Positions 8,755-51,751 of a stretch of 64,000 nt of DNA are shown here, piece by piece (positions within the stretch are counted from its first letter, which is position 1; each line of letters opens with the position of its first letter). A program made the translations under genes and the position numbers. Origin of the DNA: Lentisphaeria bacterium. GTDB taxonomy: Bacteria > Verrucomicrobiota > Lentisphaeria > Victivallales > UBA1829. The notes under the pieces were generated by a model. That model was not told the origin of the DNA, searched no databases, and saw only the letters and a program-made list of their open reading frames with translations. The stretch is taken from positions 13,322-77,321 of the forward strand of contig JAFVTF010000001.1 in NCBI GenBank assembly GCA_017503375.1, read 5' to 3'.

Positions 8755-11700
8755 TTATTTCAAAACAAAAGACATTTCTTTTTGCAATCCGGAAACAATA
8801 TCCCGGACTTTTATCTTCCATTCTCCGCAAACATCATTCAGTGCCGGGATAAATTTATATTCCCCTTTTCCGTTGGGGAGATAGATATTTTTGGTATAAT
8901 GATCAACCTCTTTATTTTCCGGTGAAATGATTGTAATTCTGACACTCTGCGGCTGATTTTTCATGCGTATGGAACACTTGAATTCTTCACCCCGTTTGAT
9001 GATAGACGGCACAACGATTTCCGGTGCAGTGATCTTTTCCGGCATAGAGGCGATCAATGCTGCATAACCGCGTTCAATACCGATTTCAGCAACATTGCCG
9101 TAACCGAGATATTTCTGATTGAGAACATCATAAAGATGTCCGTTAAACAGCATCGGAATCTTTACGATATGACGGGATGAACTTTCATTGAGATTTTTGT
9201 CAAAAAGTACACCGGCATAAGCCGCATTCCGGTCAGAGAACCGCATTACTTTTGTCTTTGCAAAGGGAATATCATCATTATCCGTTACAACTTTGAATGC
9301 CGGGAAATTGAGATGACGTGTGAACAAGTTGCGGAAAAATTCTCTGATATCAGACTCCTGATTATATTTTCTGAGTTCAAAATATTCATAGAAGTCAAAA
9401 TTCAGATAAAGGGTTTTGCCCTTTCCGTAACTGTTGATCCGGAAGACGTTCTCGCCGGAATCAGAGATCCCGGCTGCGGTATCGGGTGCAACGCCTTTAC
9501 CGACAAAATTCACGGGGTATCTGAAATAGGTTATCCAGTCGCCCATTCCGGTATCAACCTGAATATTTTCCATTTTATGTTTGACCGTAAAGGGATATTT
9601 CTGTCTGATTCCGAAAAGATCATCCAGAACGCCGGTTTTACGGAAATTACAGTTTTGGTAACGGATCCCCGTCCGGTAATCTGCAATGACGATACCGCCT
9701 TTCTGAACAAATTTTTTGATTTCGTCGGCTTCTTTATCAGAAAGAGCTTCAACGAACGGAAGAACCAGCATCCGGTAGGAGTTCAATGCTCCACTTGCAA
9801 TCTCTTTCCCGTCGATCACAGCAAAATCCAGGTTCAGATCTTTCAGCAGTGCGGCAAAGGATTTGAACGCCGGTGCATAGTGTCCGGCAGGAGCATGATT
9901 CCCCCACATATTTCTGAAATCCGGCTCTTTTCCGATCACTTTCTTACTCGGGATCCGGTTCCATTGGATCCTGTCTGCCCCCAGACAGTTTACATGATTG
10001 CCCAGATTTGCAGACAAGGTTGAAGCGTGGAAATTATCTGCGGAATAATAAATTGCGACAGAGGGTTTCTGCGGCACAGCATTTCTCAGAAGTGTTGCGG
10101 GACCACTTTTGATTTTACGGACTTCACGGGCTGCAGCTGCAAAAATCTTATTTTCCCTGAGATAATAATCCAGAGGGGAATTTTCATGTTCAATGATCGT
10201 TGCATGCCACCACCAGAGACTGTTCATTCCGGAGAACAGGGTTTCCCAGGGAACGGTACGTAAACCTGTTGGATAATCAATTCCATTCATCCAGAATCCG
10301 ATAAGATTCTTTCCCGCCGCAAAAGAACGCATGGCGTAACCATTGAAAATCTTATTTGCAAGCATCTTGTCATTGAATGAACGGGCGTAAACGTTGTTCA
10401 TGTCAAACGATTTTGTATAATTATACCAGTCATAACCATCATAGCTGGAAAATTGTTCGCTGCCTTCAAATCCGACAAATACCTCAGGATCTATTTTCTT
10501 GATAGCATCTTTCAATTCCCGCTGACGCTGAATAAAAAGAGTGGAAATAAAATTACGGTAATCTCTCCAACATGCCGGACGTTCGTAAGAGAACATCTGA
10601 GATTCGGAATCAAATTTGATCTCGTTCCAATTTTTGAAATTCCTGTTCCATGCGGAATTCAATTCCTGCAGAGAACTGTACACTTTCTGCAAATATTTCC
10701 GGAATTCGCGCCATGCCTGTTCCGTATTGCTGAAACGCCCCTCAATGACAAAAGGTGTCACATAATTTTCATCCCCGAGAGAATGGGCCAATGTTCCATA
10801 CCGTTTTCCGAGCTGCGCAGCTTTCACTGCAGATTCCATATCTTTGCTGAGTCTCTTTTCATCAAGGAGTCTGCTGATCCGGCTCTGATGGAACGCTGCG
10901 GTGTACGGAATGGAAGATAAGTTTGCCTTTGCCGTCAGCCGGAGCAGATTCTCACTCGGACTCATATTTGAGAATGCATCAATTCCGGATTTTTTCAGCA
11001 ATTTGAGATATTCTCTGTGACGTGAAGAATCGCCGATACTTCCGTTCCATGCAATGAAATAAAAATCCTGATTGCGGGGATTGAACGGGATCGTAAATTC
11101 AACAGTCGCCCGGTTGATCAGATTCCCTTTTTTATCGTAATAACAGATCTCTGCAATGTTGACCGGGGTAATGGAACCGGTCGGAAAATCCAGCTCGATG
11201 GTTTCCGGTGTTCCGGTGAATGTTTTCTGAATATTAACCCTGCCGTAAGTATCACGGACAAATGCTTTGACACTTCCTCCGGAACTGTTTTTTCTGTAAG
11301 AAATCGCGATTTTGATGGGACTCCCCTTCTTTGCATCCGGGGAGGAAAGAAGTTTTGCACCGGAAATTCCCTGATCATACTTCCTCTCAAAAACAGAACC
11401 GGTCTGTCGGATAATACAACCGTTTTCATCACAGCTGCGATTCAGAACGAAATATTTTCCTTCCGGCAGGTTATCCGTATGTTCAAAAACCTTTCCTGCG
11501 GAATCAAAGACTCTTGTCCGGACAGTTTTGACCGTTTTTTCCTGTGTCTGTATCACAGAACGGAGCAGTTCCGCCTGACGCGCCGTGGCATAATCAAACT
11601 CGCCCTGACTGCAGTTCGGGGCATAGAATCCGAATCTGAAATCAATGAATGAGGGCTGAACAAGAACTTTTCCTTTTCCGTACTGATAAATCTCAAAATT

Positions 11701-12210
11701 GAATCTGTCCTTTTTATCATATTTCTTGAAATCAAACTTCAGAGAAGTCTTCTTCCATTTCCGGCTCAGCAAATCTTTCAGATCTTTATCCGGAGCGATG
11801 AGGGAAAGCACCATACCATCTTCAACATTCTGCAGGATCTTATTCTGCACGCTCTTCGGATAGAGCTTCCACGCCGGACTCTGGGTCATAATCATGATCT
11901 CAGGCGACCGCCCCAGATGATGAAGAAGCTCTTTTTCAATATCAGCTTCTGTTCTGAACGCATCGAGCCAGTAGAAACTTCTCTGGAAAAAATTCTGTCC
12001 GCGGTTATCCAGCAGAGAACCGCCCATGGGACAACGTGTGATTTCAAAAAATCCACTCTTTTCCAGATCGTTGCAATCACGCAATCCTCCGTAAAAACCG
12101 ATCGCCAAAACTTTGATTTTCGGTGAAGAACATTCCATTACGGTAGAACATCCGCAAAGAATCACAAAAATACTTGTAATGAGTAATGATAAAGCTTTTT
12201 TCATGTTCAT
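8755..12210 (-). CDS. large secreted putative glycoside hydrolase (GH42-middle-domain-like segment)
   Basis: 1151 aa with signal peptide MNMKKALSLLITSIFVILCGC. Segment YRMLVLPFVEALSDKEADEIKKFVQKGGIVIADYRTG resembles the beta-galactosidase trimerisation/middle domain. The function call is tentative. Confidence 0.7.
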   Translation of the reverse strand: MNMKKALSLLITSIFVILCGCSTVMECSSPKIKVLAIGFYGGLRDCNDLEKSGFFEITRCPMGGSLLDNRGQNFFQRSFYWLDAFRTEADIEKELLHHLGRSPEIMIMTQSPAWKLYPKSVQNKILQNVEDGMVLSLIAPDKDLKDLLSRKWKKTSLKFDFKKYDKKDRFNFEIYQYGKGKVLVQPSFIDFRFGFYAPNCSQGEFDYATARQAELLRSVIQTQEKTVKTVRTRVFDSAGKVFEHTDNLPEGKYFVLNRSCDENGCIIRQTGSVFERKYDQGISGAKLLSSPDAKKGSPIKIAISYRKNSSGGSVKAFVRDTYGRVNIQKTFTGTPETIELDFPTGSITPVNIAEICYYDKKGNLINRATVEFTIPFNPRNQDFYFIAWNGSIGDSSRHREYLKLLKKSGIDAFSNMSPSENLLRLTAKANLSSIPYTAAFHQSRISRLLDEKRLSKDMESAVKAAQLGKRYGTLAHSLGDENYVTPFVIEGRFSNTEQAWREFRKYLQKVYSSLQELNSAWNRNFKNWNEIKFDSESQMFSYERPACWRDYRNFISTLFIQRQRELKDAIKKIDPEVFVGFEGSEQFSSYDGYDWYNYTKSFDMNNVYARSFNDKMLANKIFNGYAMRSFAAGKNLIGFWMNGIDYPTGLRTVPWETLFSGMNSLWWWHATIIEHENSPLDYYLRENKIFAAAAREVRKIKSGPATLLRNAVPQKPSVAIYYSADNFHASTLSANLGNHVNCLGADRIQWNRIPSKKVIGKEPDFRNMWGNHAPAGHYAPAFKSFAALLKDLNLDFAVIDGKEIASGALNSYRMLVLPFVEALSDKEADEIKKFVQKGGIVIADYRTGIRYQNCNFRKTGVLDDLFGIRQKYPFTVKHKMENIQVDTGMGDWITYFRYPVNFVGKGVAPDTAAGISDSGENVFRINSYGKGKTLYLNFDFYEYFELRKYNQESDIREFFRNLFTRHLNFPAFKVVTDNDDIPFAKTKVMRFSDRNAAYAGVLFDKNLNESSSRHIVKIPMLFNGHLYDVLNQKYLGYGNVAEIGIERGYAALIASMPEKITAPEIVVPSIIKRGEEFKCSIRMKNQPQSVRITIISPENKEVDHYTKNIYLPNGKGEYKFIPALNDVCGEWKIKVRDIVSGLQKEMSFVLK

Positions 12211-12216
12211 TCCTTC

Positions 12217-13926
12217 TTATTCAGCGTTCAAGTTATAACCGTAAAATGCTGCAGGAGCAAGATTTTTGCGGAATACACCGCTGCCATTGTAAAGTTTGAA
12301 ATGCAGATAACATTGACTCAGCGGTTTTTCTGAGCTGAATTCCACTGTAACCGTCTGATTTCTCTTTGAATGATCGCTGGTTTTCCAGACAGGATTTTTG
12401 CCGTCAGCGGAAATTCCGAATGTGACATACGCATTCCAGCTGCTCTTGTTCGCATGACAGGGAACCTGCAAGATTATATTTTTGACCGGAGTCCCATTAA
12501 AAACGATCTTTTGAGATGCCTCCCAGGTGGTGGAAGAACCTTTCTTACCGAAAATACTGATATTTCCCGGTCTGATCGACAGATTTTTCATATCTGATGT
12601 GGTATTGATCGTGGAGAGGAAAAGGTTCTGCTGCAGCCGTTCCTGATAGAAATATTTCCCCTGACTGTCAGCGGAAACGGTCAACTGTTTTTCTGCAGAC
12701 GGAGTACCGGCAACTTCAAGTGACAATGTTTTCAAATCGGCATTATCAGATTTGATTGTCATATAAAATTTTCCGGTTTTTGCTGCGGGGAAAGAAAGTT
12801 TCCTGTTATTTTCAGCTTTTTTGAATTGGTATTTTTTGCCGTCAAAGGAAATGCCGACTTCTATATTTCCTGCAAAATTGAGCGTAACTCCGATCTCTTT
12901 CAATTTATCCGGGGAATCAAAACGATATCCGACCGTTGCAGCCCCCTTAAATTTCAAACCGTCATTGCTCAGTTTCAGGTTTCGTGTATTCTTGATCAGA
13001 ACACGGTCAACAAACCCGGAATTGTCAAATTTACAGAAATATTTGAACACGCCGTCTGCAGGAATTATGAAGATATTTTCAGGATAGGAAAGAACCGGAG
13101 CTGCAAATTTTTTGGAGAAAAGTCCATCGAAAAATTTACGCATTTCAGGGAACGGAGCCTTATTGCTCCGGTAACAATTTACACTTCCATGCTTTTTACA
13201 TACAGCGAAAAGAAAAACCGGAAGATCCAGATCCTGACAGATTGCGAATTTCTCTTCAGCATTTTTTTTGATCGCATTCCATCCGGCTTTGTAATAACCA
13301 TCCAGTCCGGCTTCTGCTGCCCAGATTATGGGATAAACCGGGGTTCCCGTCAAAACAAATTTCTGTGTATGACGGTAAAAATCTTCCCCCTTTTTGCCGT
13401 AAGCATCATAAACCCAGCCATCTGCTTTCAGACGGGAATCCGGCGGAAGCGGTTCCGAAAGCCACTGAAATACAGGGACATTCCATTTTTTCTTTACCGT
13501 ATCATAAATATGATTCAGAACAGGGACATCACGTCCTACATTCTCTTCGGAAGCGACAACTGCGTAAACAAGCTCAGGATATGTCTGAACACCCGGAGAA
13601 CTCTCAAATAAAACTTTGAATTGTTCCTCAACATCTTCAATTGCGGGAAGACGTCTGCCTTTTACCTTTTTGTCAAATATGATTTCAAAAATCACATATT
13701 TCCGTTTTCCCTCATTGACCTCTTTTTTATGATTTTCCCAAAATATCCGCTTTTTTTCGGGGTCACGTAAAGATTTCAGATTGACTTTCAAAATTCCATT
13801 TTCATCCACCCAGGCATAATAACCATGAACTTTGTTATCCGGCATGACATTGCGAAGTGCAGAAATATCAACAGCTTTCAGAGAAAAAATCAAACAGAAT
13901 GTTATGAACAATAAAATTTTTTTCAT
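12217..13926 (-). CDS. secreted hypothetical protein
   Basis: 569 aa with signal peptide MKKILLFITFCLIFSLKA. 6-nt gap to the downstream gene and 11 nt from the upstream pseudopilin gene. Confidence 0.7.
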   Translation of the reverse strand: MKKILLFITFCLIFSLKAVDISALRNVMPDNKVHGYYAWVDENGILKVNLKSLRDPEKKRIFWENHKKEVNEGKRKYVIFEIIFDKKVKGRRLPAIEDVEEQFKVLFESSPGVQTYPELVYAVVASEENVGRDVPVLNHIYDTVKKKWNVPVFQWLSEPLPPDSRLKADGWVYDAYGKKGEDFYRHTQKFVLTGTPVYPIIWAAEAGLDGYYKAGWNAIKKNAEEKFAICQDLDLPVFLFAVCKKHGSVNCYRSNKAPFPEMRKFFDGLFSKKFAAPVLSYPENIFIIPADGVFKYFCKFDNSGFVDRVLIKNTRNLKLSNDGLKFKGAATVGYRFDSPDKLKEIGVTLNFAGNIEVGISFDGKKYQFKKAENNRKLSFPAAKTGKFYMTIKSDNADLKTLSLEVAGTPSAEKQLTVSADSQGKYFYQERLQQNLFLSTINTTSDMKNLSIRPGNISIFGKKGSSTTWEASQKIVFNGTPVKNIILQVPCHANKSSWNAYVTFGISADGKNPVWKTSDHSKRNQTVTVEFSSEKPLSQCYLHFKLYNGSGVFRKNLAPAAFYGYNLNAE

Positions 13927-13937
13927 GGATTGTTCCT

Positions 13938-14645
13938 TTATTTCAAATATTCATTAAGTTTTGAAAAAGCTGTACGCAAATGACTACCGTGTAATACGAT
14001 ACTTGCGCTTGAAGAACGCTGATTGATCCAGTCACGGAAATCCTGCCTGACTTTTATGACTCCGCTTCCGCCGCTGTATGTCACATGCGGGACATGATAA
14101 CCGTGAAACATGGCTGGTTTGTAAGTATCTGTTTCCAATCTGCAGGTAATCATTACTGTTGAACTCGGTTTTTGCACCTTTTCCAATTTATACGGAATCG
14201 TCTCTCCGGGAACACCGCTCCACACATTTCCGGAGGAATATTTTATACCACATCCTTCAAATGCGTGCATGTGATAGTGCGAGGCAAATGTTATTGAATT
14301 ATCATCATCTTTCGGACACATCAATACCGATGCCGGTCTTGTCTTTTGCAATGATCCCAAATACCCCAATGATGCGATCCGGAACAATCCATAAGGTCTT
14401 GTGTGACTTGCTGTATGATAAATCCCCGGATTATCCTTACTGTATACGGCGATGTTGCCGTCACTGTCCATTGAATACATGGCAACACCGGTATAATTCT
14501 GTTTCAATCTGCCGATACAGTTTGAAATAAAACCTTTGTCACGTGCATTGTTCAATGCCGGCAGCAGCATTCCTGCAAGTATTGCTATTATCGCAATCAC
14601 TACCAAAAGTTCAATTAAGGTAAAGCTACGTCTCATAACATACAT
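13938..14645 (-). CDS. prepilin-type N-terminal domain protein (DUF1559/H-X9-DG family, degenerate C-terminal motif)
   Basis: [38 protein letters not shown]. First gene of the 3-gene operon. No SD upstream in the present sequence. Confidence 0.85.
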
Positions 14646-14654
14646 TATGTTATG
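14634..14654. repeat. 9-3-9 palindromic site L (CATAACATA-CAT-TATGTTATG), overlaps the pseudopilin start codons
   Basis: Read directly. 14634-14653 is the exact reverse complement of 14737-14756. Confidence 0.9.
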
Positions 14655-14736
14655 TCATGTGGTCTGATTATGAGCAAGTTACAACAAAAACAAAATAAAA
14701 AAAACGCCAGAAAAACAGGAATTCAACTGAAAGGAG

Positions 14737-14756
14737 ATAACATAATGTATGTTATG
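14737..14756. repeat. palindromic site R (ATAACATA-ATG-TATGTTATG), inverted relative to site L
   Basis: 20/20 inverted match to 14634-14653. The asymmetric 3-nt core is flipped (ATG versus CAT). It is preceded by the SD AACTGAAAGGAG (14725-14736). Confidence 0.9.
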
Positions 14757-14785
14757 CGATGTTGTAAAGAATTTTCTTCCAGAAT

Positions 14786-14814
14786 ATTATAGCACAATAA
14801 TGGAAAATTGTCAA
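14786..14814 (-). promoter_or_regulatory. consensus sigma70-type promoter directed at the pseudopilin operon
   Basis: The minus strand reads TTGACA (14814-14809), a 17-nt spacer, then TATAAT (14791-14786). Confidence 0.7.
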
Positions 14815-14840
14815 TAGATTATGAGTTGAAAAATCAAAAG

Positions 14841-15122
14841 AATCTTACAGATATCCCATAAATTTTCCGGCTCCGGGGGCGTATTGTGTATGCGGTTCGG
14901 TGCTTTTTCGGACCTGTCCGACCTGTCTGACTTGTCCGACTGCCTGTCAAAACAAACCGCCTCCACCACAAATTACGGAGCAGTTGCAGTTTGACTTCGG
15001 ATGACAATTCTGCTCAAAAATGAAAATCTGACAAAATCACTTTTTGAAAATCAGAAAATCTTCTGTTCAAAAGACGGAGAAATACCTACTTTTTGAAAAA
15101 TTATGGGATATCTGTGAAGATT
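14841..15122. mobile_element. MITE-like repeat, family 2, copy A
   Basis: Terminal inverted repeats AATCTTACAGATATCCCATAAATTTTC (14841-14867) and GAAAAATTATGGGATATCTGTGAAGATT (15095-15122). The same ACAGATATCCCATAA core occurs as an inverted pair at 53563-53703. Confidence 0.6.
14911..14948. repeat. 9-bp tandem repeat array (GACCTGTCC-like, about 4 units)
   Basis: GACCTGTCC GACCTGTCT GACTTGTCC GACTGCCTGTC, read directly. Lies inside MITE-like copy A. Confidence 0.85.
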
Positions 15123-15169
15123 TAATGTTTTTTTAACCGCAATTATTAATTTTTTGATCATTTTTTTAT

Positions 15170-26753: not shown

Positions 26754-27563
26754 ATGCTCCAAATAAAACAAAAAGACTGCTCTTATGTACCGCCGAAAGC
26801 TTCATCCCGTCGGTGCAGAAATTTTACCCTGATAGAATTGCTTGTTGTAATTGCGATCATCGCAATTCTTGCGGCAATGCTGCTGCCAGCGTTGAATACT
26901 GCCAGAAATTATGCCAGACAGTCATCATGTCTCAACAACATGAAACAAAATCTTCTTGCCTGGCAAATGTATGCAAATGCCAACGACGGAGCAGTTCTTC
27001 CGAACAAAATGAAATACTCTGAGTCTGTTCCTTACAACTGGGCGGATATGATTTTCCTGAAAGATGCTTTCGGAAAGCAGAGTATCACCAAAAACGGAGA
27101 ATATTCCCGGATCAAAACACTGATTTGTCCGGCTGCAGAGAAACACAAGACTGCCTACAACTGGATCCAAATCGAACTCGATTACATGTATCGTGACTGG
27201 TTTTCCGGAGCCGCCGTTCCTTACGGAAGTAAGATTTCCCTTATGACAAAGATCAATCAGGCAGGGGCTTATGCTTCAAAATCTCTTGTCTGGATCGATA
27301 CCTGGCGAAGTACGGGGACTGTTACAAGTCTTTACTTTCAGGGCGCAAAACGTTCTGACAGCAGAACAGATCTTGAAGTGAATATTGCAGAATACCGTGC
27401 ACATCCCGGCGGTGCTTCTCAAAGTTTTGTTGACGGTCATGCAGAAATACAGAATTACTTTTGGGTGACTGTAAAGGGCGCACCGTCATGGGGATACAAG
27501 TGGGTGAACGTTTGGAATCAGGATATCGGCGGCGGTGCGGCTAAAGATTTCCGCTGCAAGTGA
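26754..27563 (+). CDS. prepilin-type N-terminal domain protein with H-X9-DG motif
   Basis: ..[38 protein letters not shown] and C-terminal [12 protein letters not shown]. Confidence 0.88.
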
Positions 27564-30340: not shown

Positions 30341-31810
30341 TTGAGGAGGGGAAAAAGCCCTTTTGAGATGGTTTGCTTAAAGTCAAGCCGATTTTGAAAT
30401 ATTTTGATAATTTTTATCAAATTCTTTATCGGCTGTGACCATTCCCCGGAGAATCAATAACATCTTTCTCATCACAGCACAACGAGCCTGCATTCTGGTA
30501 TTACCTTTAGCAAGCACTCTATTATACAAATCCTGTAATACCGGAATGCGGGGCATTGCTGTTTTGGAACACATATAAAGAAATCTTCTGACAAGCGGAG
30601 ACCCTTTCTTACTTAATTTAGTTTGATTTACACTTGTTCCGGATAGCTTTCTTACAGGATTCAACCCACTCATAGCTGTTATCTTTTGGCGGGTGGGATA
30701 ATCTTTAAGTGATCCTAACTCCCCAAGTAACATTACTGCTGTTCCCTGACCTATCCCTGGCATAGATGTCATTATATCCACTTCATGCTTGATTTCCGGA
30801 ACGCTTAAAACAATCTTATCAATTTCCCGATCCAGTCCGGCAATTTCCTTGTCTATTGATTTAGCAACATTTGTGCACATTCTTTTTGCCAGAGAATCAA
30901 TGATATTGTCGTGATAATTCCCCAACGCTGTCCTCTGATCTTTCAAAAAAGATCTGGCTCGGGCATAAGAACGCAATTTTTCCATTTCTGCCGACAGTTT
31001 TCTTTTAGCAACAGGTGTGCGTTCGCGGCCGTATCTGGCAATGACCTGTGCATCTATTTTATCGGTTTTATTTTTGATATTCAAAGAGATAGAAAATGCC
31101 TTTATTGGTTCAGGATTAGCAATAACAACCTTGGCGTAGGGAAATAAGGCAAGAATCATTTTTTCCAACTGAATCGAATAAACCCCCGTGGATTCCATTA
31201 CGATATGCAATGGCAAATCATCAAAGGTATCTTCTGAATACAAGGCAAAAAAATCACTTTGCAGGGCTTGAACCCAACTTAAAAAACTTTTTGTACCGGC
31301 ATTAGTCAACTTAAATTCACGCTCCGGCAAGTCTGACACAGAGAGCATGGGTTGGTTTTCAAACAGCTGCGGAAAATCCAATGCTGCATGAAAAGACTTG
31401 GAGCCAACATCAATTCCGACCCATAATTTTTGATTTTGGATTTGCATTTTAATCCCTTCCATTGTATATTGTTGTTGTGCCTCACTGGTCATCCTTGTAA
31501 CTATACGAACTTTATGTTCAAGATGGTTTTTACGACCTTTTGTGAAGAGCACGGTAACGGAAGATACGCATAATCTAAAAAACGATCTTAAAGATCAGGA
31601 AAGGATCGGATGCTGTGTCTTCCGTGTGTTTTTTCGTGATCAACCGAAAAAACACTCCTGTTACCGTAGCATAACTTTTTCATTTGTCAAGCAGCTGCTC
31701 TTCACCTTTGGCTCCGACGAGTTGAAATACCCATTCTCGCCAAAGGGAGCTGCTGCTATCTGATAACTGGGGAGTAATATACAAGGAAAGGTCCTTTTTC
31801 CCCTCCTCAA
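30341..31810 (-). mobile_element. IS110-family insertion sequence (element 1)
   Basis: 17-bp perfect inverted repeat TTGAGGAGGGGAAAAAG (30341-30357) / CTTTTTCCCCTCCTCAA (31794-31810) brackets the transposase gene. About 1.47 kb. Confidence 0.6.
30383..31552 (-). CDS. IS110-family transposase (DEDD recombinase)
   Basis: LWVGIDVGSKSFHAAL (DEDD N-terminus) and C-terminal MTSMPGIGQGTAVMLLGELG...SGTSVNQTKLSKKGSPLVRRFLYM. Maximal ORF is shown. The likely start is Met31 or Met36 (31462 or 31447). Confidence 0.88.
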   Translation of the reverse strand: MLFTKGRKNHLEHKVRIVTRMTSEAQQQYTMEGIKMQIQNQKLWVGIDVGSKSFHAALDFPQLFENQPMLSVSDLPEREFKLTNAGTKSFLSWVQALQSDFFALYSEDTFDDLPLHIVMESTGVYSIQLEKMILALFPYAKVVIANPEPIKAFSISLNIKNKTDKIDAQVIARYGRERTPVAKRKLSAEMEKLRSYARARSFLKDQRTALGNYHDNIIDSLAKRMCTNVAKSIDKEIAGLDREIDKIVLSVPEIKHEVDIMTSMPGIGQGTAVMLLGELGSLKDYPTRQKITAMSGLNPVRKLSGTSVNQTKLSKKGSPLVRRFLYMCSKTAMPRIPVLQDLYNRVLAKGNTRMQARCAVMRKMLLILRGMVTADKEFDKNYQNISKSA

Positions 31811-31830
31811 CTTGTCACGGCGCAGATATT

Positions 31831-31860
31831 ATGAGAGACACAAGAGGTCTCTCATTTTTT
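31831..31860 (+). terminator. rho-independent terminator (probably the displaced terminator of the 914-aa gene)
   Basis: ATGAGAGAC - 7 nt - GTCTCTCAT followed by TTTTTT. Confidence 0.55.
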
Positions 31861-31861
31861 A

Positions 31862-33527
31862 TGTCTGAAAACAAAAAATGGTTTGCCTCTTGATAAAAAC
31901 GGATTTATGTTAATCCAAGAACACCGAAGTCGCATAGTGCGCTTCAAAAATCAGGAGGACAAACCATGAATAATGTATCACAGGAACAGGAAAAAATCTA
32001 CTTCGGATTGGACATTTCACAAAAAACTATTGAAATTTTTGTTTTGAAAGGCGAAAAAGGAGTGCCATTTGGTAAAATCCTAAATAATCAAAAAAGTTTG
32101 AATGACTTTTTCGATAAAGTACCTTTTCCTTCAAAAACAATAACTGTTGCACTTGAAACTGGCACACATTCTGCCTGGATAAGTCACTGCCTTGAACAGC
32201 GAGGATATGAAGTTATAGTTGCACATGCTCGTGATTTGGCATTTATTTATAAAGGTGATAAGAAAAGTGATCGTATTGATGCGGAAAAATTAGCCCGTGT
32301 TGCCAGAGCAGATAAAAAACTGCTGCACCCGGTCAGATTAATGAGCAAAACACGTCAGGAAGCATTACTTGCAATAAAAGCCCGTGATCTGCTTATGAAA
32401 GAAAGAACCTGCATCGTCAATGCTATCCGTGGATTTGTCCGTAGTCTCGGAATAGATGATGCAGAATATTCTATTGAAACAATAAGTAAAATGTATTCTG
32501 TACTGCCCAAAGAAATCCGTCAGAATTTACGAGGATTGTTTTCTGTTTTGACCGCAATCAACAACAATATAAGCAGCTACGATAAAAGACTAAAGAAAAT
32601 TGCTGAAGAGTATCCGGAAACAAAAATTCTTCAACAAGTAAAGGGCGTTGGTCCTATTATTGCGTTAAGTTTTGCCTTGATCATCAGTGATCCCAACCGA
32701 TTCAGTTCAAAAGAATGTGCTTCATATCTTGGATTAGTCCCCAAACGGGATCAATCTGGTGAAACAGACAAACAACTTGGAATCACAAAAAGCGGTAATA
32801 AACTTTTAAGAAGATTACTTGTGCAAGGGGCACAATACATTATGGGACCATTCGGTGAAGATTGTGATTTGCGTGACTTTGGCAATCGGATTGCACAAAG
32901 AGGAGGACGAATTGCCAAAAAGAAAGCGACTATTGCGGTTGCCCGCAAATTGGCAATTACAATGCTGGCATTGTGGAGAAATCCTGATGTGAAATATGAT
33001 CCACATTTCAAGGCTGCTAATAAACAGAACAGATGTGCTTGATTAAGTTTAATCAACGAAAAACAACCAAAAGAAAAAATAGTTAAAAGAAGATTTTTCA
33101 GGATTTGCTTTTTGTCCAGTCCGGATGATCTCGTGCTAAGGCTGAGTCTGATATTGCCAATATCACAAAGAAGATTGTGGCGCAGATTGAAGACATCGGG
33201 ACGGACATTTATCAGGCGTCGCTTTCGGCAGAAGCATTACAGAACGCGAATAGGAGCAAGACAAAAGCATACCTTTTAGGAATCATCTTTCGCTGATTAT
33301 CAACTTTTTTAACGTTTTTTTGCAAACACGACTTGACAAATAGTCTCTCATAGGAGCCTGAAAGGCGAAGACGGAACTCCACCCCTTTCTAGTCCTCCGC
33401 AGCCTTGTGCGGAGGAGGATTCCAAAACCTTTTTGCGGCATTCCGATTTTTACGATGTAAAAATCGAAATGCCATCTTAAAGTTGAAATAGCAGAAGGAT
33501 TTACCGACCTGTATGGGGAACAGCGCT
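31862..33527 (+). mobile_element. IS110-family insertion sequence (element 2), ends not defined
   Basis: Transposase gene plus 485 nt of structured non-coding DNA before the next gene. No terminal repeats were identified, so the coordinates are the maximal interval. Confidence 0.4.
31966..33042 (+). CDS. IS110-family transposase (DEDD recombinase)
   Basis: IYFGLDISQKTIEIFVL N-terminus. QVKGVGPIIALSFALIISDPNRFSSKECASYLGLVPKRDQSGETDKQLGITKSGNKLLRRLLVQGA is the IS116/IS110/IS902-type C-terminus. SD AGGAGG. Confidence 0.9.
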   Translation: MNNVSQEQEKIYFGLDISQKTIEIFVLKGEKGVPFGKILNNQKSLNDFFDKVPFPSKTITVALETGTHSAWISHCLEQRGYEVIVAHARDLAFIYKGDKKSDRIDAEKLARVARADKKLLHPVRLMSKTRQEALLAIKARDLLMKERTCIVNAIRGFVRSLGIDDAEYSIETISKMYSVLPKEIRQNLRGLFSVLTAINNNISSYDKRLKKIAEEYPETKILQQVKGVGPIIALSFALIISDPNRFSSKECASYLGLVPKRDQSGETDKQLGITKSGNKLLRRLLVQGAQYIMGPFGEDCDLRDFGNRIAQRGGRIAKKKATIAVARKLAITMLALWRNPDVKYDPHFKAANKQNRCA

Positions 33528-37654: not shown

Positions 37655-38368
37655 TTATTCCACGACGAGGTTTCCGCCCGAATTGTACGCAACATAATGA
37701 TACAAGCCATCGCCTGTGAACATTTTTGCGGAGCCATCAGCGAAAGCGGCATTTGTTCCCCCGTTATGAACGAAACCGATTTTTTCCTCACTGCGGAGCA
37801 AGGCACTTTTGTAACTGAACTCAAAATTTGTTTTATCTGTACGGGCACTCTGTTCACCGAAATAGAATGTACTTGATGCCTGTTTGATTTTGCCGACTTT
37901 ACGGAGATAGTTTCCTGTCACGCTGTCAAACATGAGATAACTGTTGACCAGATAATTTGTATAGAAATCACTTACCTGCCATCCGGTTTGTCCGGTTAAT
38001 TGTTTCTTCAGATTACTTTTGCAATAATAGAAATCAACATTTACCCAGCGGGTTCCATGACTGCTGACCGATGCAAATCCCCGATAAGGCTGAAGCAGCT
38101 GATGCCACATGTAAAACGGCTGGGAAGTATTTCCTTTCGTACTCAAACGCATGGGAAGAAAATAATCGTTGTTGTCAGTGGAGTACATGGAAGCGTAGTG
38201 GGAAATCTGCTTCAGGGTATTGAGGCAGTTTGTTCCCTGCGCTTTTGCTCTTGCGTTGTTCAGCGCAGGAAGCAGCATTCCTGCGAGAATCGCGATAATT
38301 GCAATTACAACAAGCAATTCGATCAGTGTAAACCGGTACAAAGTTGAAACATTCTCTCTCTTCATCAT
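37655..38368 (-). CDS. prepilin-type N-terminal domain protein with H-X9-DG motif
   Basis: [43 protein letters not shown] and C-terminal [12 protein letters not shown]. The leader contains AACTGAAAGGA. Confidence 0.88.
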
Positions 38369-43121: not shown

Positions 43122-43305
43122 GAGGTAATTTCAAAAGTCCGGCAAAATTTGGCTGAAAAAAGATTGTTGATGAGTTGGAAATGGTAGTTTGAGCGTGGCT
43201 TTCCATCCTCCTTCGTTAAAACTCCGGAGGACAAGCCGAAAACGCTCCATTTGCAGATCGCAACAAGAATTTTCTGCCATTTTTGAAGACTTTTGAAATT
43301 GCCTC
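43122..43305. mobile_element. MITE-like repeat, family 1, copy 1 (184 bp)
   Basis: 18-bp terminal inverted repeats GAGGTAATTTCAAAAGTC / GACTTTTGAAATTGCCTC (1 mismatch). Near-identical copy at 50837-51071. Internal hairpin TCCTCC..GGAGGA. Confidence 0.7.
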
Positions 43306-45523: not shown

Positions 45524-46630
45524 ATGAATAAAAAAAATAATGTTGTTGAACGTTTGCGTGAACTGATTGCATCCGGAAAACTTCAGCCGGGGCAAAAGCT
45601 GGCAAGCGGGATCGAGCTTGCCAACAGTTTCGGCGTAGCACATTTGACCATGCGCCGTGCATTGCGTGAATTGGAACTTGCAGGTGATATAATGATTATT
45701 CACGGCAGAGGCATCTTTGTTTCAGAGCGTCATACAGCTAAGCGTAAATTCCTGATCGTGCGTCCCGGCATAACGGAAAATGCCGTCCCTACCAATTATC
45801 TGCTGCCTTATTTTCTCCAACGCTGTAATGAATTGGGGGTTGAAGTGGACGAAGCAGATTTGATTTTTCTGCGGCACAGTCCGGTTTCCGGAACGGTTCG
45901 CCAGCTGAAAGACAATCAATATACAGGAATTTTGCTTGCCTGCAGCGGATACAACGGAAATGAACCTGAATTGCAGATATTCCGCAAATTGAATGTCCCT
46001 GTTCTCATTCCCCGTGCAACTGAGACCGATTCCGAAGTCACCGGGTTCGGCGTGCTGAGATCTGACGACCGCAAAGCGTGGGAAGACGGTTTGAAATACC
46101 TCAAAGAGTGCGGCTTCAAAAAAGTCGGATTGATTTTTTCCAAGTACAAAAAGGATTCTCTTATACGGGGATTTACTTTTAAGGAGCATTTGTCATTGCT
46201 CAAAAAACATGGCATGAAGAGCGATAAAAACATGATTGGGATAGTTGATATTCAGAATGGCGAAACACTTTGCAGTCAGGTGGGAACATGCTTAAAAATG
46301 CTGATGGAGCAGGAAGAACCGCCCGAAGCGATCTACTGTTTTTCTGACTTCGTTGCCCTTTATGTCTATCTTTCCGCACAAAAAATGGGGTTGCGGATCC
46401 CTGAGGATATTTCTGTCATGGGTTTCTGCGGTTATCCCGGCGGAAAAATGCTCTCCCCGCCGCTTGCCACAGTTGATTGCGATTATCCTGCCGCCGGTAT
46501 TCTGGCAGCAGAACTGCTCTGTGATCCGGGCAAGTGGTGTTACAGTGAAAAGGAAAACAGAGAATTTATTATTCCACATAAAATCAAAAAACGCGCCAGC
46601 GTTGCAGTCAAACAGGAGGTAACACCATGA
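45524..46630 (+). CDS. transcriptional regulator, GntR-type wHTH fused to a LacI-type sugar-binding domain
   Basis: Start at Met12 (MNKKNN). [42 protein letters not shown] is a GntR HTH. The C-terminus (..[22 protein letters not shown]) is Peripla_BP/LacI-like. Confidence 0.8.
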
Positions 46631-46698
46631 TAAAAAGAATTCTGAACCGGAATTTGATCAAGGCGGTTCCGCAACATGAATCAGAAAGGATTTTTTCA

Positions 46699-47478
46699 AT
46701 GAAACAAAATGGCGTGAAGTCTGTGAACTTTACTCTGATCGAACTGCTGGTTGTGATTGCCATCATTGCAATCCTCGCCGGAATGCTCCTGCCCGCCCTG
46801 AACCGGTCACGCGAATCAGCAAGAGGCAGCAGCTGTACCGGCAATTTAAAACAGATCGGCATTATGACCACTTCTTACACCGATGATTTCGATGGCTGGG
46901 TTCTGCCCCATGACTTGCGTTATGCCCTCAACGGAGGAGTGTACGGTAATGAGTCAGATTCTTATGCAGACAAGAACACTTACGGTGCTTATCACCAGAG
47001 ATTGCGGGTGACGGGATATGTTCAGGACTGGAAGAGCGGAAATGTTATGACCAGTGTTTTTGTCTGTCCGTCTGACCGGTCTACCCGAAGTGCTTACGAA
47101 AAATTGCGCTATCAGCTTATTTATGGAATCAGTCTCGGGATCGTTTTTAAAGACAAAGCTACTTTCGGTACTCGCAAAACGGTCAAAATTTCTCAGGTAA
47201 AAAATCCCTCCCGGAAAGCCTACTGTATGGACTCTTCCGGTACAACAGATTATAAATCCCAGTTTTACATGGTCGGCGCAAGCGTTACTCCATCAAGCAA
47301 CAACGGTGCCATTGCTTACGGCAGACACAATAATGTCTGCAATATCCTGAATCTCTCCGGAGGTGTCATGAGAGTCACTGCAAGCAATCTGCTGCACAGC
47401 GTACTTACCAACGGCAGCACCAGCATGGCATGGGATTCTGACAAGGACCGTCTGACCCGTTATTACTGGGGCATGTAA
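46699..47478 (+). CDS. prepilin-type N-terminal domain protein (H-X9-SG variant)
   Basis: [43 protein letters not shown] and C-terminal [12 protein letters not shown]. An alternative ATG at 46627 overlaps the regulator stop (ATGA). Confidence 0.85.
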
Positions 47479-50836: not shown

Positions 50837-50938
50837 GAGGTAATTTCAAAAGTCCGGCAAAATTTGGCTGAAAAAAGATTGTTGATGGAGGTAATTTCAA
50901 AAGTCCGGCAAAATTTGGCTGAAAAAAGATTGTTGATG
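50837..50938. repeat. 51-bp tandem duplication (2 units) inside MITE-like copy 2
   Basis: GAGGTAATTTCAAAAGTCCGGCAAAATTTGGCTGAAAAAAGATTGTTGATG occurs twice back to back. Confidence 0.9.
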
Positions 50939-51071
50939 AGTTGGAAATGGTAGTTTGAGCGTGGCTTTCCATCCTCCTTCGTTAAAACTCCGGAGGACAA
51001 GCCGAAAACGCTCCATTTTCAGATCACGGCAAGAATTTTCAGACATTTTTGAAGACTTTTGAAATTGCCTC
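50837..51071. mobile_element. MITE-like repeat, family 1, copy 2 (235 bp)
   Basis: Same TIRs and interior as 43122-43305, in the same orientation. Carries a 51-bp tandem duplication of its left end. Confidence 0.7.
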
Positions 51072-51751
51072 TATTTGATATCAATGGACGCAATTGCTGC
51101 CCGGTTGCTCCAATTTTCATTGACACCCCCAAACACCGGTACGATAAAAATGGATGACCACCCGCGTTTTTTCGCAGCCAGTTCTGTAAAATCAGCCGTC
51201 ATAGGAACTTCTCCAACAACCTTCCCATTCATCACAACGGATAACTTTTTGTCATTCCATACCATTTTTGCTGTATTGAAAGCATCCGGTGTCATCATTT
51301 TTGTCGGAACAATAACTTGAACCTGTTCCTTTCCAACCTGAATCCCAAAGTTCGCTTTTCCGTTGACATCAATATACATGTAATAGATCAGAACACTTTT
51401 TGCATCATCTTTCGCAGGTGAAAACACATGCAGGATCCGGAGCTGACTCCCCGGTTTACGCTTAAGTATTTTAAATGTAACCTCGGCACTTCCGGACGCA
51501 AAAGGAAAATTACCCGCGGCACTGTATGCCGGAACTTTTTTATTCTCTGCATTTTTTTCTGTCAAAACAAAGGCGAATTTTCCATCGGGGCCGGCAATAA
51601 AGTTTTCATCGGAAATGATAGCCTTCGTGATCATTGCTTTGGATTTTGCTTCCGGTGCAAACTTCTTTTCCGGAAAAGACAATTTGAAAGAAGGACCGGC
51701 AATACAAGAGCCGGCGATACCAAGTGCAATCGCAAGCGTTGTAAGTTTCAT
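51071..51751 (-). CDS. secreted hypothetical protein
   Basis: 226 aa with signal peptide MKLTTLAIALGIAGSCIAG. Beta-rich sequence with no recognised domain. Confidence 0.65.
   Translation of the reverse strand: MKLTTLAIALGIAGSCIAGPSFKLSFPEKKFAPEAKSKAMITKAIISDENFIAGPDGKFAFVLTEKNAENKKVPAYSAAGNFPFASGSAEVTFKILKRKPGSQLRILHVFSPAKDDAKSVLIYYMYIDVNGKANFGIQVGKEQVQVIVPTKMMTPDAFNTAKMVWNDKKLSVVMNGKVVGEVPMTADFTELAAKKRGWSSIFIVPVFGGVNENWSNRAAIASIDIK

What the first reader, a model, noticed from the sequence alone, without database searches (positions are those of the whole stretch)
14634..14814. Candidate Shine-Dalgarno-flipping inverton (or AUG-sequestering leader stem) in front of a pseudopilin/glycan-enzyme operon
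A perfect consensus promoter on the minus strand (TTGACA-N17-TATAAT, 14814-14786) fires toward the pseudopilin gene (ATG at 14645). Between promoter and gene lie two copies of a 9-3-9 palindrome. CATAACATA-CAT-TATGTTATG (14634-14654) contains Met codons 1 and 4 of the gene. ATAACATA-ATG-TATGTTATG is at 14737-14756. Their 20-nt overlap is a perfect inverted repeat, and the asymmetric 3-nt core (CAT versus ATG) shows the two sites are oppositely oriented. That is the geometry of two recombinase core sites (dyad arms plus asymmetric core, as in lox/FRT/hix) arranged to invert the 83-bp spacer. In the present orientation the gene has no SD (..CACATGACATAACATA-ATG), although most other genes in this window have strong GGAG-type SDs. 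The only SD (AACTGAAAGGAG, 14725-14736) points the other way and drives a 15-codon ORF (14745-14792, MYVMRCCKEFSSRIL) whose first four codons duplicate the pseudopilin start (MYVMRR). Flipping the segment would place AACTGAAAGGAG 8 nt upstream of the pseudopilin ATG. The paralogous pseudopilin gene at 38368 has the same leader (AACTGAAAGGA) in the ON arrangement. The alternative, non-exclusive reading is that the two arms form a 20-bp stem in the mRNA leader that buries the start codons.
Basis: partly seen in the sequence, partly recalled or inferred. Interest (0 to 1): 0.8.

Follow-up and report, generated by a model that had tools for sequence, protein, structure and literature searches.

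The report
DNA flip-switch carrying a ribosome-binding site
An uncultured sheep-gut Lentisphaeria bacterium has an 83-bp DNA segment in front of a pilin-like/sugar-degrading operon that occurs in both orientations in nature, and flipping it does not move a promoter but adds or removes the gene's ribosome-binding site, an apparently undescribed way of working for a familiar kind of genetic on/off switch.

Summary
On the minus strand a perfect TTGACA-N17-(TG)TATAAT promoter precedes two 20-nt arms, which are perfect inverted repeats (29 nt at 90%). The arms flank an 83-bp spacer, and the gene-proximal arm contains Met codons 1 and 4 of a prepilin-type gene. The window is in the 'OFF' state, with no Shine-Dalgarno (SD) sequence.

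I found 18 other public contigs of this locus. Thirteen are OFF. Four carry exactly the predicted inversion, giving AACTGAAAGGAG-ATAACATA-ATG. One contig begins exactly at the first base of the gene-proximal arm. Two ON/OFF contig pairs are identical over 2.5 and 3.8 kb except for the reverse-complemented spacer. ON occurs in three haplotypes. A diverged strain has two substitutions mirrored in both arms, so its repeat is still perfect.

The promoter lies outside the segment. The segment holds no promoter and no convincing terminator. Its functional cargo is the SD: predicted pairing with a generic anti-SD is -8.7 kcal/mol in ON and +0.4 in OFF.

The arm-arm RNA stem is predicted in both states, so it is not the switch. 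No recombinase was found within about 84 kb.

Verdict: a real inverton, and a new translational variant of a known kind. The effect on expression is inferred, not measured.

The parts
14786..14814 (-). Fixed sigma-70-type promoter, TTGACA-N17-TATAAT with an extended -10 TG. It lies outside the invertible segment and is conserved in all strains.
   Evidence: 12/12 match; identical in all loci, including the diverged L009.
14737..14756 (-). Promoter-proximal inverted-repeat arm, CATAACATACATTATGTTAT in mRNA sense. It is the presumed recombination site.
   Evidence: It is the inversion breakpoint in L011, L012, L023 and L009. The imperfect extension runs to 14734-14762.
14655..14736 (.). Invertible spacer, 83 bp by the 20-nt-arm definition and 33% G+C. 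In the window it is in the OFF orientation. Its promoter-proximal end (14725-14736, + strand AACTGAAAGGAG) carries the SD, which faces the gene only after inversion.
   Evidence: Exact reverse complement found in L011, L012 and L023 (and L009 with SNPs), with unchanged flanks. No promoter-like or terminator-like site inside it.
14725..14736 (+). SD-bearing leader end (AACTGAAAGGAG). It currently points away from the gene. After the flip it sits 8 nt upstream of AUG1.
   Evidence: SD-antiSD duplex is -8.7 kcal/mol in ON and +0.4 in OFF. An 11-mer is shared with the leader of the paralogue at 38368.
14634..14654 (-). Gene-proximal inverted-repeat arm, ATAACATAATGTATGTTATG in mRNA sense. It contains AUG1 (14645-14643) and AUG4 (14636-14634) of the pseudopilin gene.
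   Evidence: Contig L019 starts exactly at its first base. The imperfect extension runs to 14628-14656.
13938..14645 (-). Controlled gene: a 235-aa prepilin-type (N_methyl) pseudopilin, leader MYVMRRS followed by FTLIELL.
8755..13926 (-). Co-oriented downstream genes of the presumed operon: a 569-aa secreted protein of unknown family (12217-13926; 743 aa in haplotype B) and a 1151-aa GH42-like beta-galactosidase lipoprotein (8755-12210).
   Evidence: The same gene order is seen in the 59%-identical orthologous operon L010.

Best explanation
This is a phase-variable DNA inversion switch (an inverton) that acts on translation initiation. A constitutive-looking promoter outside the element transcribes through it in both states. 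A site-specific recombinase, not identified and encoded elsewhere in the genome, exchanges strands within the two 20-bp inverted arms and flips the 83-bp spacer. In the ON orientation the spacer end AACUGAAAGGAG lies 8 nt upstream of AUG1 and is preceded by an A-rich unstructured leader, so ribosomes load and the pseudopilin is made. In the OFF orientation, which is the state of this window, the same position reads ...CCACAUGAC with no SD, so the first gene is not translated. The untranslated 0.7-kb stretch probably also lowers expression of the downstream secreted protein and the GH42 enzyme by polarity. Because the arms are transcribed, they can form a 20-bp stem that buries both AUGs in either state. 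This probably keeps OFF tight and makes ON depend on the SD and a standby site, but the stem is not the switch. What is shown: the sequence anatomy, the natural occurrence of both orientations on otherwise identical DNA, and the conservation or co-variation of the arms. What is inferred: the translational consequence, the polarity, enzymatic catalysis and reversibility.
For: (1) Both orientations exist. The cluster member P0122 (266 aa) is the read-through product of the flipped spacer. Contigs L011, L012, L023 and L009 carry the flipped form with breakpoints inside the arms, and 14 copies carry the window's form. (2) L012 versus L002 (2523 nt) and L011 versus the window (about 3.8 kb) differ only by the exact reverse complement of the spacer. 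(3) ON is found in haplotypes A, C and D and OFF in A and B. Haplotype A has 5 OFF, 2 ON, and one contig (L019) that begins at base 1 of the gene-proximal arm, the branch point a de Bruijn graph creates when both orientations are in the reads. (4) In L009 the two substitutions in one arm are mirrored in the other, which keeps a perfect 20-nt repeat. (5) The promoter is outside the spacer, and the spacer holds no promoter-like or terminator-like site. (6) SD use is the norm here (26/43 genes versus 8.7% background), the OFF leader has none, and the ON leader pairs with a generic anti-SD at -8.7 kcal/mol. (7) The ON leader shares the 11-mer AACTGAAAGGA with a paralogue's leader. (8) The 31-codon in-frame extension created in ON has stop codons in haplotypes C and D, so the SD-proximal AUG is the real start.
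Against: No expression, ribosome-profiling or read-level data were available, so the ON/OFF labels are predictions. No tyrosine or serine recombinase gene lies in the 64-kb window or within 10 kb beyond either end. The exact 20-mer occurs at no other locus in the species' representative MAG. Folding predicts that the arm-arm stem sequesters AUG1 and AUG4 even in ON, with an opening cost of 19.0 kcal/mol, so ON may be only weakly translated unless initiation is co-transcriptional or uses a standby site. All ten haplotype-B contigs are OFF, so switching may be rare or biased. That L002 and L012 come from one sample is inferred from identical length and sequence, not verified. The anti-SD used was a generic one, because the organism's 16S rRNA is not in the window.
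Confidence: 0.75

Rival explanations
1. The inversion is real, but it acts mainly on transcript elongation or stability, as in the C. difficile cwpV and flgB switches. In OFF the U-rich spacer RNA (U8-A-U4-G-U5) with a preceding weak hairpin, or Rho acting on the leader, would stop transcription. The SD placement would then be secondary.
For: In the OFF mRNA a weak hairpin (UCAG..CUGG) is followed 2 nt later by U8AUUUUGUUUUU (structure). The closest described switches, with a promoter upstream of the invertible region, work by termination (PMC2784873, PMC7446863). An untranslated leader and ORF would in any case invite Rho.
Against: The terminator scan finds nothing in the spacer. The candidate hairpin has only two G-C pairs, and the inter-strain SNPs fall in it (G, T or A variants), so it is not conserved. 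The placement of a strong SD exactly 8 nt from AUG1 only after flipping, and its homology to a paralogue's leader, are unexplained by a pure termination model. The two models are not exclusive.
Confidence: 0.12
2. No active switching: ON and OFF are old, fixed structural variants (a one-off inversion polymorphism between lineages), or the flipped contigs are assembly artefacts caused by the inverted repeat.
For: All ten haplotype-B contigs are OFF. No recombinase was found nearby. No read-level data were examined.
Against: ON/OFF pairs have zero differences over 2.5 and 3.8 kb of flanking DNA, which an old polymorphism in a population with about 2% divergence would not give. ON occurs on three distinct haplotypes, and haplotype A has both states. 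Contig L019 breaks exactly at the arm/spacer boundary. The flipped form appears in MEGAHIT k141 and SPAdes-style (NODE_) contigs whose k-mers exceed the 20-29-nt repeat, so junction k-mers must come from real reads. The arms co-vary in L009.
Confidence: 0.05
3. The functional element is the RNA: the two arms form a 20-bp leader stem that hides the start codons, acting as a translational attenuator or thermosensor, and the DNA inversion is an incidental by-product of having an inverted repeat.
For: The minimum-free-energy folds of all three leaders contain the arm-arm stem (duplex -23.8 kcal/mol), with P(unpaired) of AUG1 about 0. The mirrored substitutions in L009 are also compensatory for this RNA helix.
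Against: The stem is predicted equally in both orientations, so it cannot explain why the SD sits, inverted, at the far end of the spacer at the exact distance that gives 8-nt spacing after a flip. It also does not explain why both orientations recur on identical backgrounds. A 59%-identical orthologous operon has a plain SD and no repeat.
Confidence: 0.05
4. The inversion recodes the protein. In ON the ORF reads through the spacer and gives a 266-aa pseudopilin with a 31-residue N-terminal extension, so the switch toggles between two protein isoforms.
For: Gene callers annotated exactly this 266-aa product (P0122) on L011 and L012.
Against: The extension has stop codons in the other two ON haplotypes (L023: one; L009: three). 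It has no SD of its own, whereas AUG1 has a strong SD at 8 nt. The 7-residue leader MYVMRRS is a normal prepilin leader.
Confidence: 0.02

Closest known systems
Clostridioides difficile cwpV switch (Cdi1, RecV-dependent; Emerson et al. 2009, PMC2784873)
   Same: A short invertible segment (195 bp there, 83 bp plus arms here) lies between a fixed upstream promoter and the ORF of a surface protein gene. [quoted passage not shown] The recombinase is not adjacent.
   Different: cwpV OFF is proposed to work through an intrinsic terminator formed in the OFF transcript. Here no convincing terminator exists and the orientation-dependent cargo is the Shine-Dalgarno sequence. One arm here overlaps the start codons. 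The phyla differ (Firmicutes versus Lentisphaerota).
C. difficile flagellar (flgB) switch (Cdi4; Trzilova et al. 2020, PMC7446863)
   Same: An inverton within the 5' leader, downstream of the promoter. It controls a surface-appendage operon after transcription initiation.
   Different: The mechanism there is Rho-dependent termination of the OFF leader. Here loss of the SD is the primary predicted effect, and Rho polarity would at most be a consequence.
Classical invertible promoters (E. coli fimS, Salmonella hin, Bacteroides capsule/fimbrial invertons found by PhaseFinder-type surveys)
   Same: Short inverted repeats flank a small segment upstream of surface-structure genes. Both orientations coexist in gut populations.
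   Different: Those segments carry the promoter. Here the only consensus promoter is outside, and the spacer has no promoter-like site on either strand.
'Partial intergenic' / gene-altering programmed inversions (Milman et al. 2023, PMC9881135; Chanin et al., PMC10028968)
   Same: One repeat overlaps the 5' end of a coding sequence and the other lies in the intergenic region.
   Different: Those are mostly long, shufflon-like exchanges of coding segments between two opposed CDSs. Milman's screen required repeats of at least 22 bp that link CDS pairs on opposing strands. Here no alternative coding segment is exchanged and the protein is unchanged; only the ribosome-binding site is swapped in or out.
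Moraxella Piv pilin inversion (DEDD/IS110-related invertase; from my own knowledge, not checked here)
   Same: DNA inversion controls a prepilin-type protein gene. Two IS110-family genes are present in this window.
   Different: Piv swaps alternative pilin C-terminal coding segments. Here the IS110 genes are 16-18 kb away and look like ordinary IS copies. Their flanks show only a chance-level 10-mer match to the arms.

Membership tests
Inverton (programmed, phase-variable DNA inversion) | A pair of inverted repeats flanks a short DNA segment | tested here: met
   Perfect 20-nt repeat (29 nt at 90%) around an 83-bp spacer; 2 sites found versus 0.02 expected.
Inverton (programmed, phase-variable DNA inversion) | Both orientations occur in natural populations on otherwise identical DNA, with breakpoints in the repeats | tested here: met
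   4 ON and 14 OFF copies. L012/L002 and L011/window are identical except for the reverse-complemented spacer.
Inverton (programmed, phase-variable DNA inversion) | Both orientations coexist within one population or sample (ongoing switching) | tested here: inconclusive
   This is indirect. Contig L019 starts at base 1 of the arm, a graph branch point. L002 and L012 have the same length and sequence and probably come from one sample assembled twice. No reads could be mapped.
Inverton (programmed, phase-variable DNA inversion) | A dedicated site-specific recombinase (tyrosine or serine family) catalyses the inversion | tested here: inconclusive
   None in the 64-kb window or in 10 kb beyond each end. 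The rest of the genome could not be searched.
Inverton (programmed, phase-variable DNA inversion) | Orientation changes expression of the adjacent gene | not testable with these tools
   Predicted only: SD-antiSD pairing is -8.7 kcal/mol in ON and +0.4 in OFF.
Invertible promoter (fimS/hin/Bacteroides type) | The promoter lies inside the invertible segment | tested here: not met
   The 12/12 promoter is at 14814-14786, outside the arms. There is no promoter-like site in 14655-14736 on either strand.
cwpV-type 5'-UTR terminator switch | The OFF transcript forms an intrinsic terminator involving the inverted region | tested here: not met
   No terminator-like site in the spacer. The weak hairpin before the U-run is not conserved among strains.
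Gene-altering programmed inversion / shufflon | Inversion exchanges alternative coding segments and changes the protein sequence | tested here: not met
   The mature protein is identical in ON and OFF. The apparent 31-aa extension carries stop codons in two of the three ON haplotypes.
MITE / IS-derived insertion | Multiple copies of the element with terminal inverted repeats in the genome | tested here: not met
   The 20-mer is found only at this locus in the window, in the species' representative MAG and in the metagenome scan.

The most novel reading that the evidence does not exclude
This is a natural 'translational inverton': a DNA-inversion phase switch whose only functional cargo is the Shine-Dalgarno sequence. 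The start codon is embedded in one recombination arm, a fixed promoter sits outside the element, and an obligatory arm-arm RNA helix adds a second layer of control. If so, it is a mechanistic class that promoter-centred inverton surveys and CDS-pair-centred surveys would both miss. It may be common in front of the hugely expanded pseudopilin/glycan-enzyme operons of PVC-group gut bacteria. A more remote possibility is that the flip is catalysed by a non-canonical enzyme, such as a domesticated IS110-type RNA-guided recombinase. I put that at about 0.05, since no canonical invertase is near and two IS110 genes are in the window.
Probability: 0.55. Interest if true: 0.75.

Novelty: new variant of a known kind. 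Interest (0 to 1): 0.66.

Why it matters
Invertons are a main source of heritable heterogeneity in gut bacteria, but almost all characterised ones flip a promoter, and a few (C. difficile cwpV and flgB) act through termination in the leader. This locus is a natural case, found in both states, in which the flip would act on translation initiation by delivering or removing the ribosome-binding site.

That matters in three ways. Tools that classify invertons by promoter content or by paired coding sequences will overlook such elements. The locus shows phase variation in Lentisphaeria, an uncultured and poorly studied gut lineage for which I found no report of it. It also links stochastic switching to a pseudopilin plus GH42 glycan-utilisation module, which suggests that these enigmatic, massively paralogous operons are surface-exposed targets of phage or host selection.

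The element is very compact: 123 bp including the arms, with recombination sites 103 bp apart centre to centre. That makes it a potentially useful natural template for small recombinase-addressable translational switches.

Tried and rejected
- **Genome scan for the 20-mer:** only this locus gave a pair of sites. Two single hits in unrelated Proteobacteria MAGs are at chance level. There is no evidence of a regulon of identical sites, although the MAG is fragmentary.
- **Metagenome scan:** four single hits, all chance. It was not informative.
- **Recombinase hunt:** Pfam and NCBIfam on about 50 window proteins, plus 10-kb extensions beyond both window ends. No tyrosine or serine recombinase was found.
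- **IS110/bridge-RNA idea:** the longest match between the arms and the IS110 region is a 10-mer inside a transposase coding sequence, about what chance gives. I rejected it as evidence.
- **Other invertons in the window:** nothing convincing. The 43-nt, 77% repeat just upstream of the promoter (14825-14867 / 15095-15137) is in the same orientation in all strains.
- **Intrinsic terminator in the OFF spacer:** not supported.
- **N-terminal extension isoform:** rejected because of stop codons in other haplotypes.
- **Orthologous operon at 59% identity (L010):** it has no repeat and a plain SD, so the switch is a recent, lineage-specific addition.
- **Literature searches:** I found no natural SD- or RBS-carrying inverton, only synthetic recombinase circuits and general statements. 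The library is incomplete, so this is not proof of absence.
- **Sample identity of L002 and L012:** I could not confirm from the literature that they derive from the same sample.

Full report
**1. The observation**

- TTGACA (14814-14809), 17 nt and TATAAT (14791-14786) form a 12/12 promoter with an extended -10 TG.
- About 30 nt downstream lies CATAACATA-CAT-TATGTTAT. Then comes an 83-nt spacer that begins CTCCTTTCAGTT, then ATAACATA-ATG-TATGTTATG, whose ATGs are codons 1 and 4 of a 235-aa ORF (13938-14645).
- The motif ATAACATANNNTATGTTAT (up to 2 mismatches) occurs only at these two places in 64 kb, against 0.02 expected.
- The two sites are a perfect 20-nt inverted repeat, extendable to 29 nt at 90%.
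- The ORF is a prepilin-type pseudopilin (Pfam N_methyl, NCBIfam IV_pilin_GFxxxE).
- It is followed, co-oriented and closely spaced, by a 569-aa secreted protein of no known family and a 1151-aa GH42-like lipoprotein.

**2. The SD argument**

Of 43 other genes in the window, 26 have GGAG, GAGG or AGGA at -18..-4, against 8.7% of random 15-mers. This gene has none (ACCACATGACATAAC).

Reverse-complementing the spacer in silico gives ...AACTGAAAGGAG-ATAACATA-ATG, a strong SD 8 nt from AUG1. Predicted pairing with a generic anti-SD (ACCUCCUUA; the organism's own 16S rRNA is not in the window) is -8.7 kcal/mol in that state and +0.4 in the present one. The flipped leader shares the 11-mer AACTGAAAGGA with the leader of the paralogous pseudopilin at 38368. 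The unflipped leader shares only an 8-mer with it.

**3. The decisive test: does the flipped form exist?**

The organism is an uncultured Lentisphaeria bacterium from ruminant gut (genome hit L002, MAG RGIG5270, sheep colon).

A homologue search found a 90% cluster of nine sequences. One member, P0122, is 266 aa. It is the pseudopilin preceded by [31 protein letters not shown], which is exactly the translation of the flipped spacer read in frame. Its two contigs (L011, L012) carry the predicted inversion, with breakpoints inside the arms.

I then fetched every reachable contig of the locus and scored orientation.
- **OFF (14):** the window, L001, L002, L013-L018, L020-L022, L030 and L031.
- **ON (4):** L009, L011, L012 and L023.
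- **Broken (1):** L019 begins at the first base of the gene-proximal arm.

L012 and L002 are both 2523 nt and differ at no position outside the spacer, which is an exact reverse complement. L011 and the window are likewise identical over about 3.8 kb.

The strains otherwise differ by about 2% and fall into four haplotypes.

| Haplotype | OFF | ON | Other |
|---|---|---|---|
| A (includes the window) | 5 | 2 | L019, broken at the arm |
| B | 10 | 0 | |
| C (L023) | 0 | 1 | |
| D (L009) | 0 | 1 | |

Inversion on an identical background, recurrence of ON on three backgrounds, and a contig that ends at exactly the base where ON and OFF paths diverge all point to repeated, ongoing switching. They argue against an old fixed polymorphism. 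An assembly artefact is unlikely, because the flipped junctions occur in k=141 MEGAHIT contigs and in SPAdes-style (NODE_) contigs, whose k-mers exceed the 20-29-nt repeat. I could not map reads, so coexistence within one sample remains an inference.

**4. Conservation of the arms**

In the diverged strain L009 the promoter-proximal arm is CATAATATTCATTATGTTAT and the gene-proximal arm is ATAACATAATGAATATTATG. Two substitutions in one arm are mirrored in the other, so the 20-nt repeat is still perfect, while each arm on its own is no longer a palindrome. The N-terminus becomes MNIMRR, and both ATGs are kept.

What is maintained, then, is identity between the arms, not the dyad symmetry of each site. 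This fits a recombination substrate that is homogenised or selected for identity. It is equally compensatory for the RNA helix, so it does not separate those two constraints.

In L009 the sequence upstream of about 14850 is unrelated to the window. The promoter-switch-operon therefore travels as a module. A 59%-identical orthologous operon in another Lentisphaeria MAG (L010: pseudopilin, 569 aa, 187 aa, GH42) has no repeat and an ordinary SD. The switch is a recent, lineage-specific addition.

**5. What the flip changes**

- The promoter is outside the segment. The spacer contains no promoter-like site on either strand and no terminator-like site.
- A weak hairpin followed by U8 exists in the OFF RNA, but the inter-strain SNPs fall in it and it has only two G-C pairs.
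- The in-frame 31-codon extension seen in haplotype A when ON has stop codons in haplotypes C and D, so it is not a coding feature.
- What remains is the SD, together with the change from an A-rich leader (ON) to a U-rich leader (OFF).

RNA folding predicts the 20-bp arm-arm helix (duplex -23.8 kcal/mol) in both orientations. AUG1 and AUG4 are paired in it, and the cost of opening -18..+12 is similar (19.8 kcal/mol OFF, 19.0 ON, 17.4 in L009). I regard it as a by-product of transcribing the arms. It lowers basal initiation and makes expression depend on the SD and an adjacent single-stranded standby region. It also warns that ON may not be strongly ON.

**6. The enzyme**

About 50 proteins of the window were scanned with Pfam or NCBIfam, and the neighbourhood was extended 10 kb beyond both ends. 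No tyrosine or serine recombinase is present in about 84 kb.

The only recombinase-like genes are two IS110-family RNA-guided transposases at 30383-31552 and 31966-33042. Their region shares only a chance-level 10-mer, inside a coding sequence, with the arms.

The invertase is therefore presumably encoded elsewhere, as RecV is for the C. difficile switches. The arms are 103 bp apart centre to centre, and the spacer is 33% G+C with several A-tracts. This may help the tight looping such a short inversion needs, but that is an inference.

**7. Comparison with known systems**

- **Closest precedents:** the C. difficile cwpV and flgB switches. [quoted passage not shown]
- **Invertible promoters:** this locus fails that definition.
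- **'Partial intergenic' or gene-altering inversions** (PMC10028968, PMC9881135): they share the feature that one repeat overlaps a gene start, but they exchange coding segments, which this one does not. Milman's screen required repeats of at least 22 bp linking opposed CDS pairs, so it would not have captured this element.
- **Literature on SD-carrying invertons:** full-text searches for natural invertons that carry a Shine-Dalgarno sequence or RBS returned only synthetic circuits and general statements. The library is incomplete, so I claim only that I found no description.

**8. Verdict**

The inverton interpretation is supported by natural occurrence of both orientations. The translational (SD-delivery) mechanism is the best-supported reading, but it is untested. 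I class it as a new variant of a known kind. My rough confidences:
- The segment really inverts in nature: about 0.95.
- This is recurrent, enzyme-mediated switching: about 0.8.
- The main effect is on translation initiation through the SD: about 0.75.

Noticed in passing
window 30341-33042: Two IS110-family 'RNA-guided transposase' genes (30383-31552 minus, 31966-33042 plus; NF033542) sit side by side and diverge. The first is bracketed by a 24-nt, 88% inverted repeat (30341-30364 / 31787-31810). They are the only recombinase-like genes in about 84 kb around the switch.
   Followed up: partly
window 43122-43305, 50837-51076: A MITE-like element of about 184 bp has 27-nt terminal inverted repeats (GAGGTAATTTCAAAAGTCCGGCAAAAT ... 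ATTTTTGAAGACTTTTGAAATTGCCTC). The left end occurs three times exactly (43122, 50837, 50888), against 0 expected by chance. All copies are in intergenic regions.
   Followed up: partly
window 12217-13926 versus L001/L013 etc.: The second gene of the operon is 569 aa in haplotype A (including the window) and 743 aa in haplotype B, an in-frame indel of about 522 bp in a secreted protein with no family assignment. All ten haplotype-B contigs have the switch OFF.
   Followed up: no
window 14825-14867 / 15095-15137 and 14908-14940: Immediately upstream of the -35 box lies a 43-nt, 77% inverted repeat enclosing 227 bp. That stretch contains three tandem 9-nt units (TCGGACCTG-like). It has the same orientation and copy number in all strains examined. 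Function unknown.
   Followed up: partly
L009 (ENA ERZ1767614) 1-1300 versus window >14850: In the diverged strain the promoter-switch-operon module sits next to a completely different upstream gene (401 aa) instead of the EamA gene, so the module has moved or the neighbourhood has been rearranged.
   Followed up: no
L030 1184-1884 (ENA ERZ28593733): In one haplotype-B, switch-OFF contig the pseudopilin gene is called as two ORFs (105 + 127 aa). This may be a frameshift (decay of a silenced gene) or an assembly error.
   Followed up: no
window 26754-27563, 37655-38368, 46627-47478: Three further prepilin-type (N_methyl/DUF1559) genes each head or join a glycan-enzyme operon (DUF4838/GH67N, GDSL lipase plus GH123-like, Laminin_G_3 protein). 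All have ordinary SDs and no flanking inverted repeats. The pseudopilin-plus-glycosidase module is a recurrent architecture in this genome.
   Followed up: partly
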